Shown here one piece after another: positions 100 to 27,494 of a DNA stretch of 32,227 nucleotides (the stretch's first letter is position 1; each line of letters opens with the position of its first letter). Below the pieces are notes generated by a model, which saw only the letters and a list, made by a program, of their open reading frames with translations, did no database searches and was not told the origin of the DNA. The position numbers and the translations under genes were made by a program. Source of the stretch: a virus (Duplodnaviria; Caudoviricetes); IMG/VR virus record IMGVR_UViG_3300008255_000316, positions 1 through 32,227 of that record; one strand, given 5' to 3'.

Positions 100-128
100 A
101 ACAGATCTCCAGATATCAGATTACAGAT
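93..128 (-). repeat. Five spaced (A)TCTG units spanning the mtd stop codon (candidate IMH/3' cis element of the DGR)
   Basis: Minus strand reads aATCTGtaATCTGatATCTGgagATCTGttttgTCTGta. Plus strand has CAGAT at 102, 110, 117, 124 and CAGAC at 93. Confidence 0.5.
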
Positions 129-250
129 TGTCACAGGCCAGCCGCGACCCAATGCTTGTGCCCAGACTCCACGGAACGTAGTTCGCGAGCACAGCGCGGG
201 ACCCGGCCTTCACGCCGCTGTACCAGTACGCGCCAGCGATGTAGGTAATC
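121..250 (-). repeat. Putative DGR variable region (VR) at the 3' end of the adhesin gene
   Basis: C-terminus AGAYWYSGVKAGSRAVLANYVPWSLGTSIGSRLACD fits the CLec VR scaffold G-x-W-x-x-G-x-x-AGSR...PW...IG-x-R. Positions that are typically Asn in template repeats hold NNC/NNT codons (TAC, TAC, AGC, CTC, AAC, TAC, GTT, AGT, AGC). No template copy seen in this window. Confidence 0.75.
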
Positions 251-1311
251 AGGCCGGTGGCATTAGGCAAATAAGCCTGGCCTTTCCCTGCACCAAGTAC
301 GTTCTGCCAGGCGAAGCTGGTGGTATCGTGACGGTTGGACAGCTCATCAAGCCACTCATAAACATTGCCAACAGCGTCAACGATATTGAACGCCGAGATG
401 GCGGCGGGCTTGATGCCGGTGGCAGGATCGTGCGCTCCGGTGGAATTGTTCACTCGGCATCCAGTTCGCGCCCTGGCGCTGTTGGTGGTTTTTGTCCAGC
501 CGTAATCGTCCGCCCCGTCCTGCCCCTGGGGGTTACCGAAGGCTGACTTGATCCACTCGCCGTAGGTAAGAAGCCGCTTGTCTGCTCGCGCAGCCAGCTC
601 CCCGAAGGTGTACCAGTTCATGCCTTCGGTACCGGTAACGGGAACCTGACCATACTTCGACTGCAGGCGGCCGGTGGCAATGTGGAGTCCGTTGCTGCCG
701 CTTTCAAAGGTAATGGATTCCGCCGCGCTGGAGAGATAAATATCCACCCAGATATGACCGATCTTTACCATGCCCTCGGGGCTGCATTTGGGCCGGTTCT
801 GAAGGTCCCACACGGAATTGGGTATGATGCCGGTTGTGACGTTATCTTCCCAATCAATAGCCCCGGAGCCGAACCGGGTGCCTTCCGAGTCAACCGGCAC
901 CCAGAGGCCGTCGGTGCTTACTTTTCGGATGTACCCATAATGAAAGCCGCCGATTTTCCGACTGTTGTCGGCGCTATACCCGGCCGGGAAAGTGGTGTTC
1001 AAGCTGATGATGAACTGGCCATCGGCGCCGTCGTCCACAAGGTAAACGTAGTAGTCCTTGCCGACCTCAAAGGAACCGGTGTCAAGGTCTGCGTCCGAGA
1101 GCTCTACATCCGCATCCAAACGGAAGCTCTTCCACTGGGCGTTGTAGAGGGTGAGGGTCGTCCCCGCCTTGACCGTGATAATGTTCGCGGTATAGGCGAA
1201 GGGGTTTTTCTTTTCCAGTATCCTGTCACTGCGGACAAGCACGTCCATCATGCCGGAGAAAAGCGCGGCATCGGCGTCGGTAATATTGTCCTGTATAAGT
1301 CTTGCTATCAT
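121..1311 (-). CDS. mtd: Major tropism determinant-like tail adhesin (Mtd N-terminal region + FGE-type C-type lectin domain)
   Basis: 396 aa. Motifs LDTGSFEVGKDYYVY, NSRKIGGFHY, PEGMV, WVDIYLSS, KRLLTYGEW, DAVGNVYEW and terminal IGSRLACD. Last gene of the tail module. Confidence 0.88.
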   Translation of the reverse strand: MIARLIQDNITDADAALFSGMMDVLVRSDRILEKKNPFAYTANIITVKAGTTLTLYNAQWKSFRLDADVELSDADLDTGSFEVGKDYYVYLVDDGADGQFIISLNTTFPAGYSADNSRKIGGFHYGYIRKVSTDGLWVPVDSEGTRFGSGAIDWEDNVTTGIIPNSVWDLQNRPKCSPEGMVKIGHIWVDIYLSSAAESITFESGSNGLHIATGRLQSKYGQVPVTGTEGMNWYTFGELAARADKRLLTYGEWIKSAFGNPQGQDGADDYGWTKTTNSARARTGCRVNNSTGAHDPATGIKPAAISAFNIVDAVGNVYEWLDELSNRHDTTSFAWQNVLGAGKGQAYLPNATGLITYIAGAYWYSGVKAGSRAVLANYVPWSLGTSIGSRLACDNL

Positions 1312-24279: not shown

Positions 24280-24416
24280 GCGGGATCTGTGTACACCACC
24301 CCGCAGCGTCTGCATACGTGGTGGGTCTTGCCCAGGTGCTCCCAGGTAGAGCAGGGCTTGTGCCCGAAGCGGCGGCATATCCACATCTTGATTCTGGTTA
24401 TAAGGTCTTCGCCCAT
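24276..24416 (-). CDS. Small Cys/His zinc-binding prophage protein (DUF1660-like)
   Basis: Not in ORF track. AAGGAGG RBS; MGEDLITRIKMWICRRFGHKPCSTWEHLGKTHHVCRRCGVVYTDPA (46 aa) with C-x3-GH...C-x-RCG. Confidence 0.7.
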   Translation of the reverse strand: MGEDLITRIKMWICRRFGHKPCSTWEHLGKTHHVCRRCGVVYTDPA

Positions 24417-24496
24417 GGGGGCCTCCTTGTAAGGGTAGCCTCCGCTCCTTCCGATAATGGTAGCACGGGCAACCAGCCCGAAAGGAGCGAAGCGCT

Positions 24497-24676
24497 ATGG
24501 AACAGTCTCTCAAAGAACTGGCGATGGAAATCGCCAAGATGGTAGTTTCGGTAAATCCGGAATACGTCAACCTGAAAAACGGTTTTGTCACCGGAACAAC
24601 CATCATCGACCTGCGCCGGGATATCCTTGACGCCCTAAAGAAGGACGCCGAGGAACATCCCGACTACTACGATTAA
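24497..24676 (+). CDS. Small opposite-strand (moron-like) hypothetical protein
   Basis: Not in ORF track. AAAGGAG RBS; MEQSLKELAMEIAKMVVSVNPEYVNLKNGFVTGTTIIDLRRDILDALKKDAEEHPDYYD (59 aa); fills the gap between two minus-strand genes. Confidence 0.7.
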   Translation: MEQSLKELAMEIAKMVVSVNPEYVNLKNGFVTGTTIIDLRRDILDALKKDAEEHPDYYD

Positions 24677-24876
24677 GCGAGATTGATCGCTTCCCCCGGA
24701 ATGTGCAGGGTAAACACGACCGTTCCTTCCGTATCTATGGACAGGTCGCTATACCAAGCCTTTAGGCCGCTATCCCGAATCAGTTTCAGGGCAGTATTCG
24801 CCCTGTCTGCGCCTTCGGTAATGCGTTCTTCCGGCTGGTACTTCCGGGGGTCTTCTTTGCTCATTCTGGCATTCAT
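24673..24876 (-). CDS. Hypothetical protein
   Basis: 67 aa; TAGGAGGT RBS. Confidence 0.7.
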   Translation of the reverse strand: MNARMSKEDPRKYQPEERITEGADRANTALKLIRDSGLKAWYSDLSIDTEGTVVFTLHIPGEAINLA

Positions 24877-25041
24877 CCGATACCTCCTAAATATTACCGC
24901 CTGATTCCCCGGCGGCCCGGTAGGGAAATAGTTAAAGGGCTTGAATTGGCGGTTTATCCCAACGCCTCGTTTTACGTCGCCCCCCGACGTGCTGGTTTAT
25001 CCGGTCTTTGCCAGCCTGTAGCACTGCGCCGGTGCTAAAAT

Positions 25042-25121
25042 TGGAGCCGAGGGGATTTGAACCCCTGTCCCGAAGCGTTCCCCTGTAGGGTATTTCGCTC
25101 CGGTCGAACCCATCCGGCCCC
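25042..25121 (-). ncRNA. Minimal tmRNA-like RNA consisting only of the tRNA-like domain (80 nt)
   Basis: GGGGCCG-GATGGGTTCGA-CCGGAGCG-AAATACCCTACAGGGGAA-CGCTTCGG-GAC-AGGGG-TTCAAAT-CCCCT-CGGCTCC-A. Has a 7-bp acceptor with G3:U70 and discriminator A, stemless D-loop with GG and TTCGA, 8-bp helix 2a, GAC linker and perfect T-arm. Confidence 0.88.
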
Positions 25122-25151
25122 GTTCGGTGCATCACTTTGCACCGGTTTGCA

Positions 25152-25826
25152 TCACCCTAAGTTCTCCTTAATGTGATTTATCTCCTGTTCTTCCAAAGCT
25201 TTTTCATATGTTCTCGGAAAATGCGTTTCCCAGAACCTTGGCAGGTAGTCAAGCAGCTTCCCAATCTTGAGTTGTTTGCCGATTGCTCGCATCAACACAA
25301 GATGCGGCAGCAATACCACTGGATCACCCCTGTGCTCTACCCTGATGATGTCTCTATAGCAAATCCCAGCGGCCCGCATCGTTCTTTTTCTGAACCACCA
25401 CACCGGCGGGCCGCCAAAGGCGTAGCATGCCGGGCCGCCATTGAAAGTCAAAGATCCATACTTATAAGCGGAAATCACCGTGGTAATTTCGGCATAAGCA
25501 GCCCCCTGGGAATATCCTGAGAATACTACCTGGGCGGGGTAATGTTTTTTTATCGTCCCGGCAGTCCAACCCCAAACCCGGCGCATGGAATGCACAAATC
25601 CCCTGTGACCCCATATCCGCTTTCCGGCAATCCGGAACGATGGGGACGGCGGGAAGAATTCGAGGTTTATTTTCCAGTCTGTTGCAGAAACAGAGCCCTG
25701 GAAAAAGATGTAGAGAGTATTGCTTTTTATATCAAACCTGTACTTAGCTTGTATGTCCCGCTCTTCGTCGATGGTCTCCCATAGACCTGAGCAGGTTTCC
25801 TTGTAAAAACCCAGTAAGCCGTTCAC
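25152..25826 (-). CDS. Class 3 lipase (alpha/beta hydrolase)
   Basis: FQGS....DW..NL, GHRGF, SGYSQGAA nucleophile elbow, YAFGGP.V, R..H.GDPV..LP, C-terminal His. Confidence 0.88.
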   Translation of the reverse strand: MNGLLGFYKETCSGLWETIDEERDIQAKYRFDIKSNTLYIFFQGSVSATDWKINLEFFPPSPSFRIAGKRIWGHRGFVHSMRRVWGWTAGTIKKHYPAQVVFSGYSQGAAYAEITTVISAYKYGSLTFNGGPACYAFGGPPVWWFRKRTMRAAGICYRDIIRVEHRGDPVVLLPHLVLMRAIGKQLKIGKLLDYLPRFWETHFPRTYEKALEEQEINHIKENLG

Positions 25827-26095
25827 TTCGACTCGCTCCTTTTCTTCAAATGTTCCTCAAACATGGCCGTAAGGCTCAGCTGGGCCGGGCCGTCGGCATT
25901 CCTGTATTCTTCAAAGCGGCCTTCAAACTCGCCGAAGGTGCAGCAGGGGTTGTGCGCCTGGAAGGCGTGCCAGGCTTTTAAGACAAGCTCGCCGCCGTGT
26001 TCCTTGGCCATACGCACCGCAACTTCCTGCTCGTCCGCTTCCAGGTTCCAGTCAAAGGGAGCCTGCAGGCGCCGGAAATACTCTTCCTTCTTCAC
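25823..26095 (-). CDS. Hypothetical protein
   Basis: 90 aa; GTGA overlaps at both ends. Confidence 0.7.
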   Translation of the reverse strand: MKKEEYFRRLQAPFDWNLEADEQEVAVRMAKEHGGELVLKAWHAFQAHNPCCTFGEFEGRFEEYRNADGPAQLSLTAMFEEHLKKRSESK

Positions 26096-26337
26096 GAGTT
26101 TCCCTGGTAATGGATAATCGACCGGATATGGCTGATCGAGTATCCGTGCTTCACCGACAGATCCCGGTACCGGGCTCCTTTTTCGTACTCTGCCCGGATG
26201 GCCCGGTGCCGCTCGTCGGTCACCACGCTCTTGGGTATGTAAAGAGTCGATCCGGCAAAGACCTCGGCCACTTTCATGGCGGCATCTTCGCCGATAAGCT
26301 CTTTTAATAACTCGTAAGAATCGTTTTTACTCTCCAT
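26092..26337 (-). CDS. mor: Mor/C family transcription activator
   Basis: LIG.DAA.K....FAG..LYIPK...R...IR..Y..G....DL..K.GYS...IR.II. Start revised to ATG 26337 (TGATG overlap with upstream stop). Confidence 0.88.
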   Translation of the reverse strand: MESKNDSYELLKELIGEDAAMKVAEVFAGSTLYIPKSVVTDERHRAIRAEYEKGARYRDLSVKHGYSISHIRSIIHYQGNS

Positions 26338-26571
26338 CAAACATCCTTGAATAACCATTGTTGCCGCTCCTCACGGAGGATGTGCAGGGCTTCGGCCAAG
26401 TCATCCTCAATCTTCCCGATCAGGTTCCCCTGGCTCTTTACCCGCAGGAGAAGATCGGCGGTGTCCCGGCGCATAAGCGCGCAGGATTCAGCTGCTTCAC
26501 CCAGCCGGTCCGGTTCAAACAGACTCATCTGCGCCGCCCGCGGGGGGGGTGTCAGCCTTGCGCCGTTTCAT
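26337..26571 (-). pseudogene. Small coiled-coil gene apparently frameshifted at a C8 tract
   Basis: RBS-supported ATG at 26571 is one base out of frame with the 26337-26528 ORF. A C7 allele would give MKRRKADTPPRAAQMSLFEPDRL... Confidence 0.55.
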
Positions 26572-27386: not shown

Positions 27387-27411
27387 TTCGACCCTCCTTC
27401 TAATTACTGGC

Positions 27412-27479
27412 TGCTCATCAGGCCCGGGGCGCCACCGCCCGGGCGACGACCGGCCGCTTTCACGGCCCGCCGTTTCGCA
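27412..27479 (-). ncRNA. Type II hammerhead ribozyme
   Basis: TGC-GAAA-CGGC-g-GGCCG-TGAAAG-CGGCC-g-GTCG-TC/GCCCGGG-CGGTGGCGC-CCCGGGC-CTGATGA-GCA. Full core (CUGAUGA, GAAA, GUC) with stems I, II and III all paired. Predicted cut between 27445 and 27444. Confidence 0.92.
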
Positions 27480-27494
27480 TTGCACGGCAAACAA

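What the first reader, a model, noticed from the sequence alone, without database searches (positions are those of the whole stretch)
25042..25121. Phage-encoded mini-tmRNA: complete tRNA-like domain, no mRNA/tag domain
Seen: the tmRNA 5' signature (GGGGCCG..GG.TTCGAC) and 3' signature (GAC-AGGGG-TTCAAAT-CCCCT-CGGCTCC-A) are joined by an 8-bp helix (CCGGAGCG/CGCTTCGG) capped by only ~18 nt. Every helix pairs, G3:U70 and discriminator A are intact, and CCA is not encoded. Known: these are the AlaRS identity elements and the SmpB-binding elbow of tmRNA. Bacterial tmRNAs normally carry hundreds of nt with pseudoknots and a tag ORF at this point; tag-less versions are known to me from some mitochondria. 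Integration scars in ssrA keep only one end, and Mu-like phages do not use such att sites. Inference: a functional RNA that is alanylated and either titrates SmpB/EF-Tu to block host trans-translation, acts on stalled ribosomes without adding a degradation tag, or decoys host tRNA-targeting defence nucleases.
Basis: partly seen in the sequence, partly recalled or inferred. Interest (0 to 1): 0.92.

Follow-up and report, generated by a model that had tools for sequence, protein, structure and literature searches.

The report
Phage tag-less mini-tmRNA in Mu-like virus
This Mu-like phage carries an 80-base gene with only the tRNA-shaped end of the bacterial ribosome-rescue RNA (tmRNA) and none of its tag message; it belongs to a conserved family seen in many viral contigs, already described from one phage, and likely lets the phage compete with the host's rescue of stalled ribosomes.

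Summary
Real. On the minus strand (25121 to 25042) lies an 80-nt tmRNA tRNA-like domain whose tag region is replaced by an 18-nt cap (Rfam tmRNA 65 bits, 290 model positions missing; ARAGORN misses it). It is not a decayed ssrA: 81 distinct viral sequences keep G3:U70 and A73 although the search did not ask for them, and their variable pairs covary. It shares the architecture of the one published phage case, the 'TLD only' tmRNA of mycobacteriophage DS6A, reported to inhibit host tmRNA in E. coli. The closest prophage relative sits in a Spirochaetales genome that has its own full ssrA and smpB; 0 of 36 carrier viruses encode SmpB. Best reading (0.5): an alanylated RNA that takes host SmpB and EF-Tu and competes with tmRNA at stalled ribosomes, adding alanine instead of a tag. 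No expression or binding is shown. Particular to this phage group: two relatives carry a second, oversized tRNA-like RNA right behind it, which this window lacks. The scan noted this family before on other DNA (263 notes). New member of a known but unsurveyed kind.

The parts
25042..25121 (-). Tag-less mini-tmRNA (TLD-only), 80 nt to the discriminator; CCA would be added by the host
   Evidence: 84.4 bits with model R1 built from 26 other viral sequences
25115..25121 (-). Acceptor stem 5' strand (G1, G2, G3), pairs with 25043-25049
25042..25049 (-). Acceptor stem 3' strand with U70, and discriminator A73 (25042): alanine identity elements
   Evidence: invariant in the family
25104..25114 (-). 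Stemless tmRNA-type D loop, the predicted SmpB contact
   Evidence: motif kept in 28 of 29 distinct sequences found without asking for it; SmpB contact with the deformed D arm from PMC3985003 passage
25070..25103 (-). Helix H2a (25096-25103 with 25070-25077) closed by the 18-nt cap (25078-25095) that stands where the pseudoknots and tag frame normally are
   Evidence: covariation
25050..25069 (-). GAC connector and T arm
25125..25144 (-). 7-bp leader hairpin ending 3 nt before G1; the ~33-nt leader is kept in L134 and L128 although the gene upstream differs in L134; processing or regulatory role inferred
25042..25045 (-). Junction of an apparent ~204-nt deletion: relatives L134 and L128 carry here a spacer and a second ~158-nt tRNA-like RNA ending in the same four bases
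25152..25826 (-). Lipase class 3-like accessory gene directly upstream, same strand; replaced by an unrelated ORF in L134, so not a fixed partner
26092..26358 (-). Mor-family transcription activator; marks the middle region in which the RNA gene lies, ahead of the antirepressor, lysis and head genes

Best explanation
The element is a phage gene for a tag-less tmRNA head that is likely cut out of the phage early/middle transcript, likely given CCA and alanine by host enzymes, likely bound by host SmpB and EF-Tu, and would then compete with host tmRNA at ribosomes stalled on broken mRNAs. Having no message of its own, it would accept the stalled chain, add alanine and append no degradation tag, while tying up SmpB that tmRNA needs. 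The net effect would be a dominant-negative brake on trans-translation during infection, sparing phage proteins from tagging. Shown here: sequence, structure, conservation, covariation, genomic setting, absence of a phage SmpB. Inferred: transcription, processing, charging, SmpB binding, ribosome entry, benefit to the phage.
For: Alanine identity under selection: G3:U70 81 of 81 and A73 82 of 82 distinct viral sequences, none of these positions being in the search pattern. tmRNA-specific D loop kept in 28 of 29 distinct sequences from a pattern without it. Covariation in all four helices (95.2% cells paired against 71.2% shuffled, 0 of 500 shuffles; slid controls 39-52%). No SmpB in 36 of 36 carrier virus records; the genome holding the closest prophage has smpB and a full ssrA. 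Same architecture as DS6A, of which two papers say that it, or a similar molecule, inhibits host tmRNA in E. coli (PMC4131195, PMC11915505; passages). TLD plus SmpB makes polyalanine without mRNA in vitro (PMC3929946 passage), so ribosome entry is possible. A tmRNA whose resume codon is a stop does not support lambda-immP22 growth (PMC2862035 Table 4), so a head without message is not a working substitute in E. coli. 9 of 90 distinct family genes have a same-strand tRNA within 20 nt, as expected for tRNA-like processing.
Against: No transcript or biochemical data. The reported inhibition held whether or not the molecule was chargeable, so that assay does not explain the invariant alanine marks. 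One complete carrier phage (G012) also has a 392-nt full-length tmRNA with a plausible tag frame, hard to square with plain inhibition. Some phages need trans-translation to grow. No sigma-70 promoter was found within 24400-25500. L128 breaks one H2a pair. More distant Mu-like relatives (L400-L403) lack the gene, so it is dispensable in this group.
Confidence: 0.5

Rival explanations
1. Tag-less rescue: the charged RNA with SmpB frees nonstop ribosomes by template-free alanine addition (one or several residues), after which ArfB or peptidyl-tRNA hydrolase releases the chain. It helps phage translation instead of blocking rescue.
For: Invariant alanine identity; polyalanine synthesis by TLD-SmpB in vitro; alanine tails work in rescue in the RqcH pathway (PMC11633108 passage); the presumed host genome has a 155-aa ArfB-like frame besides RF1 and RF2; co-occurrence with a full tmRNA in G012; tag-less organellar tmRNAs are kept with SmpB; lambda-immP22 needs charging and recycling more than the tag.
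Against: The DS6A-type molecule was reported to inhibit tmRNA; a resume-to-stop tmRNA fails to support phage growth; only 1 of 36 carriers encodes a Pth2.
Confidence: 0.25
2. Decoy for defence proteins that cut or sense tRNA or tmRNA (elbow, acceptor stem, CCA tail, or SmpB-like domains).
For: Two close relatives place a second anticodon-atypical, oversized tRNA-like RNA directly behind it; family members sit in phage tRNA arrays; defence systems with SmpB-like domains are predicted (PMC10542128 passages) and Cas12a3 grips T arm, acceptor stem and CCA (PMC12851939 passages).
Against: A generic decoy would not need both the tmRNA D loop and fixed alanine identity; no recurring defence or anti-defence neighbour among 71 flanking proteins scanned (71 chosen from 551 flanking frames); none of the oversized-RNA loci printed had a TLD nearby (output partly cut).
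Confidence: 0.17
3. Non-functional relic: an internally deleted host ssrA, an attachment-site scar, or part of the overlapping 67-codon frame 24932-25135.
For: The gene is patchy among Mu-like relatives, and the region is a hot spot of exchange.
Against: Both ends present in standard order; sequence unlike the ends of the host ssrA in the genome of the closest prophage; compensatory changes across a family of median 67% pairwise identity; insert length 26-33 nt in 78 of 82; the overlapping frame is shifted by the 1-nt difference in L134.
Confidence: 0.03

Closest known systems
'TLD only' (CDS-less) tmRNA of mycobacteriophage DS6A (JN698994.1 28478-28560; Mao et al. 2009, not read; cited through PMC4131195 and PMC11915505 passages)
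   Same: One-piece head of about 80 nt with alanine identity, H2a, A-rich internal loop and 3-bp tetraloop cap; no encoded tag; phage-borne; no phage SmpB. DS6A's cap is the commonest cap among the viral sequences (14 of 81).
   Different: Different sequence and cap loop (UACA); temperate Mu-like phage of a probable spirochaete; tandem with a second tRNA-like RNA in relatives; closer to the consensus D loop and connector than DS6A (84 against 56 bits).
Standard one-piece bacterial tmRNA (SsrA, Rfam RF00023)
   Same: Acceptor stem, G3:U70, A73, stemless D loop, H2a, connector, T arm.
   Different: No pseudoknots, resume codon or tag frame; 80 nt against about 360; an extra gene beside the host's full ssrA.
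CDS-less organellar tmRNAs (jakobid mitochondria; Mallomonadaceae plastids)
   Same: Loss of the mRNA-like domain with the head retained (passages).
   Different: Those are the organelle's only tmRNA; this is a viral accessory gene in cells that keep a full tmRNA.
RqcH/RqcP alanine tailing
   Same: Would add alanine without a template (only under the rival reading).
   Different: RqcH is a protein acting on split 50S subunits with tRNA-Ala; here an RNA with SmpB would act on 70S ribosomes.

Membership tests
tmRNA (RF00023, functional trans-translation RNA) | tRNA-like domain with G3:U70, A73, stemless D loop, T arm | tested here: met
tmRNA (RF00023, functional trans-translation RNA) | mRNA-like domain with resume codon, tag frame, pseudoknots | tested here: not met
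   290 model positions absent; ARAGORN no call. Not filed as a trans-translating tmRNA.
Permuted two-piece tmRNA (RF04321) | acceptor piece upstream of coding piece | tested here: not met
   standard order; only 20 bits, below gathering 47
DS6A-type TLD-only tmRNA | complete one-piece head, 65-95 nt, H2a capped by a short hairpin, no tag | tested here: met
   one model scores window 84.4 and DS6A 55.8 bits, host ssrA ends and tRNAs 34 or less
DS6A-type TLD-only tmRNA | carried by a phage in addition to the host's ssrA and smpB | tested here: met
   Mu-like genes; genome G001 of the closest prophage has full ssrA and smpB; the window's own host is not known directly
DS6A-type TLD-only tmRNA | expressed RNA that inhibits host tmRNA | not testable with these tools
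   no RNA data on the element
Canonical tRNA-Ala | D stem and anticodon stem-loop | tested here: not met
   no D stem, 4-nt terminal loop that varies across the family; ARAGORN no call
ssrA attachment-site fragment | one gene end only, identical to host ssrA, next to an integrase | tested here: not met
   both ends; unlike host ssrA ends; internal position in a transposable phage

The most novel reading that the evidence does not exclude
Hundreds of phages encode a message-free tmRNA that, with host SmpB, adds alanine to stalled chains on 70S ribosomes without a template: an RNA-driven alanine-tailing route that replaces tagging in infected cells. In this Mu-like group it is one of a tandem pair of anticodon-independent tRNA mimics.
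Probability: 0.2. Interest if true: 0.85.

Novelty: new member of a known kind. Interest (0 to 1): 0.55.

Why it matters
The literature I could search treats the tag-less phage tmRNA as a single curiosity (DS6A). It is instead a conserved family: about 270 stored IMG/VR stretches match one strict pattern, in unrelated phage types, prophages and tRNA arrays, and default ARAGORN overlapped only 4 of 90 distinct genes, none as the 80-nt unit. Whether phages block, bypass or borrow trans-translation is open; an 80-nt RNA is easy to transcribe and test in purified translation, and the family supplies natural variants. If it is an inhibitor it is a natural antagonist of a pathway pursued as an antibiotic target; if it tails with alanine it is a new rescue route.

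Tried and rejected
Expression: no RNA holder listed for window 24600-25400 apart from one doubtful run with a small share; laid on L134 5100-6450 it covered only 70 nt downstream, not the RNA: no evidence either way. BLASTN against GenBank phages gave only T-arm matches. Search of the order of G001 held 2 genomes and found only G001. The metagenome scan returned one contig of the window's own length, and L136/L398 is 99.95% identical to the window: not counted as independent. Dropped rows: 10 of 121 pattern matches without a closed acceptor stem (L008, L044 and L100 are permuted tmRNAs), L026 (1-nt shift); L122, L125 (permuted tmRNA pieces) and L123 (imperfect stem) among the 14 genome hits; 87 of 120 loci closed no acceptor stem. 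MAFFT alignment A1 was out of register and not used for pair counts. In one search the number of pairs with double changes (14) was reached by 69 of 500 shuffles, so that one measure is not informative. Gordonia GodonK, Streptomyces Wakanda and Pseudomonas SM1 hits are not family members by the model (26 bits or less at the hit). No conserved protein partner: neighbours cluster by phage type (head, replication genes). A separately encoded tag piece was not seen. The weak sRNA-Xcc1 match (19 bits, E 4.8) was rejected. Mao et al. 2009 and Ranquet et al. 2001 were not held; the latter is known here only as a title in a reference list.

Full report
Observation. The element lies on the minus strand, 25121 to 25042. 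Rfam's tmRNA model matches both ends with 290 internal positions missing (65.2 bits, E 1.3e-24), and the minimum-energy fold is the expected one: acceptor stem with G3:U70, stemless D loop, 8-bp H2a, an 18-nt cap, connector, T arm and discriminator A, with no encoded CCA. ARAGORN finds nothing in the window. The window is a Mu-like phage record; the RNA gene is co-oriented with all phage genes, between a lipase-like accessory gene behind the Mor activator and the antirepressor, lysis and head genes. No sigma-70 promoter was found nearby, so co-transcription and tRNA-like processing are inferred.

A conserved family. A pattern made only of the D-loop end, a 20-50 nt gap, connector and T loop returned 120 IMG/VR loci, about 270 estimated in all. 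With the window's own copy, 111 of 121 matches closed an acceptor stem, giving 82 distinct sequences. After dropping one shifted sequence, 81 of 81 have G1-C72, G2-C71 and G3:U70; A73 is in 82 of 82. These positions were not in the pattern, though my script favoured a GG start when placing the 5' end. Variable pairs covary: acceptor pairs 4-6 and T pairs 1-2 pair in 81 of 81 (shuffle maxima 46-57), H2a pairs 1-4 in 75-81 of 81 (maxima 47-57). On an ungapped subset of 26, 95.2% of cells pair against 71.2% in shuffles (0 of 500) and 39-52% in slid controls; the 3-bp cap stem covaries too. A second pattern without the D loop gave 29 distinct closed heads from 33 of 120 loci, 28 of which keep the tmRNA D-loop motif (18 exact; partly the same contigs). 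Median pairwise identity is 67%. This refutes decay.

Precedent. Passages of PMC4131195 and PMC11915505 describe the 'TLD only' tmRNA of phage DS6A and say that it, or a similar molecule, inhibits host tmRNA in E. coli, whether or not chargeable, perhaps by titrating SmpB. The DS6A sequence has the same layout and the family's commonest cap. A model built from 26 other viral sequences scores the window 84.4 bits, DS6A 55.8, an unannotated gene of cultured Streptomyces phage pSt2308 76.4, and host ssrA ends, tRNAs and a permuted piece 34.3 or less. Nine literature searches showed no survey of the family; the library lacks most subscription papers and I read no supplements. Earlier notes of this scan report the family on other DNA many times; none was found for this phage's relatives.

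Relatives and host. The genome scan gave 14 hits. Two are near-copies: a prophage in an uncultured Spirochaetales genome (L134, 84-97% identical over most of its 12 kb) and a short contig in a genome labelled Desulfobacterales (L128). The host is therefore probably, not certainly, a spirochaete. That genome has a full ssrA with a normal tag, smpB and an ArfB-like frame, and its ssrA ends differ from the phage RNA. Full-length tmRNAs were also found in 3 of the other 4 genomes and 3 of 5; the rest are incomplete assemblies. The RNA and its leader hairpin persist while the upstream gene is swapped. Both relatives carry, 35-40 nt downstream, a second tRNA-like RNA of about 158 nt with acceptor, Leu-type D arm, T arm and a multibranched middle; the window lacks it, the junction falling in the four bases shared by both 3' ends. 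More distant Mu-like relatives lack the TLD. It is an accessory module.

Mechanism. None of 36 carrier virus records encodes SmpB (most are fragments, 8 IMG/VR records at least 90% complete), so the partner must be the host's. Retention of the tmRNA D loop points to SmpB, and invariant G3:U70/A73 to charging and EF-Tu delivery; this goes beyond passive titration, which did not need charging. TLD with SmpB makes polyalanine without mRNA in vitro (PMC3929946 passage), so such an RNA can cycle on ribosomes. A tmRNA that cannot resume translation fails to support lambda-immP22 (PMC2862035 passages and table). Together these favour a charged competitor that suppresses tagging (0.5). Against it: one complete phage carries both forms, and some phages depend on rescue; tag-less rescue by alanine addition remains open (0.25). 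A decoy role (0.17) gains from the tandem mimic and from arrays (9 of 90 genes within 20 nt of a same-strand tRNA; many loci had only 300-nt flanks). That tmRNA affects Mu prophage repression I know from a title in a reference list and recall only.

Papers seen: passages only of PMC4131195, PMC11915505, PMC10542128, PMC9004378, PMC3929946, PMC3985003, PMC4174442, PMC11662646, PMC10085705, PMC10690425, PMC12851939, PMC2862035, PMC11633108; none in full. Helix and position names (H2a, G3:U70, A73) follow usual tmRNA and tRNA numbering and are recalled.

Verdict. Observation confirmed; interpretation partly supported. A new member of a known kind whose breadth seems unpublished and whose function is directly testable. 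Interest 0.55.

Noticed in passing
L134 5793-5950 (-) and L128 4404-4562 (-); absent at window 25042: Second, ~158-nt tRNA-like RNA directly behind the mini-tmRNA: acceptor stem, Leu-type D arm, T arm, discriminator A, multibranched middle with a 7-nt loop resembling a UAU anticodon loop; Rfam tRNA only 22.8 bits.
   Followed up: partly
L271-L390: A pattern for Leu-type D arm plus T arm 80-110 nt apart matches about 790 IMG/VR stretches; 78 of 113 distinct matches close an acceptor stem around highly variable middles, i.e. a large class of oversized phage tRNA-like RNAs (output partly cut, a few are tandem tRNAs).
   Followed up: partly
window 27405-27480 (-): Type II hammerhead ribozyme (54.1 bits) between gam and the next gene, kept in L134; association of ribozymes with Mu-like phages is in print (PMC10085705 passage).
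   Followed up: partly
window 24922-25041 (-): 120-nt non-coding segment present in the window and L134 but not L128; 70 nt of it occur almost unchanged in an unrelated sequence context in a contig of run X1. Possibly another mobile RNA or regulatory module.
   Followed up: no
L393 1191-1268 (PV588686.1 33356-33436): Unannotated mini-tmRNA in the tRNA region of cultured Streptomyces phage pSt2308.
   Followed up: partly
G012 C1 46486-46567 and 77588-77979 (L011, L404): A complete 124-kb phage with both a mini-tmRNA and a full tmRNA whose likely tag is unusually long, 27 residues.
   Followed up: partly
L126 3324-3393 (G041): 70-nt mini-tmRNA beside an amino-acid-kinase-family gene in a Saccharibacteria assembly in which no full tmRNA was found; the assembly is only 0.5 Mb.
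   Followed up: partly
L134 4393-4462 (-): c4-2-like RNA (35.6 bits, under gathering) near the start of the antirepressor gene in the relative; not found in the window.
   Followed up: no
window 121-1311 (-): Tail protein with Mtd and FGE-sulfatase-like domains, the type varied by diversity-generating retroelements (link recalled); the record ends just beyond it.
   Followed up: no
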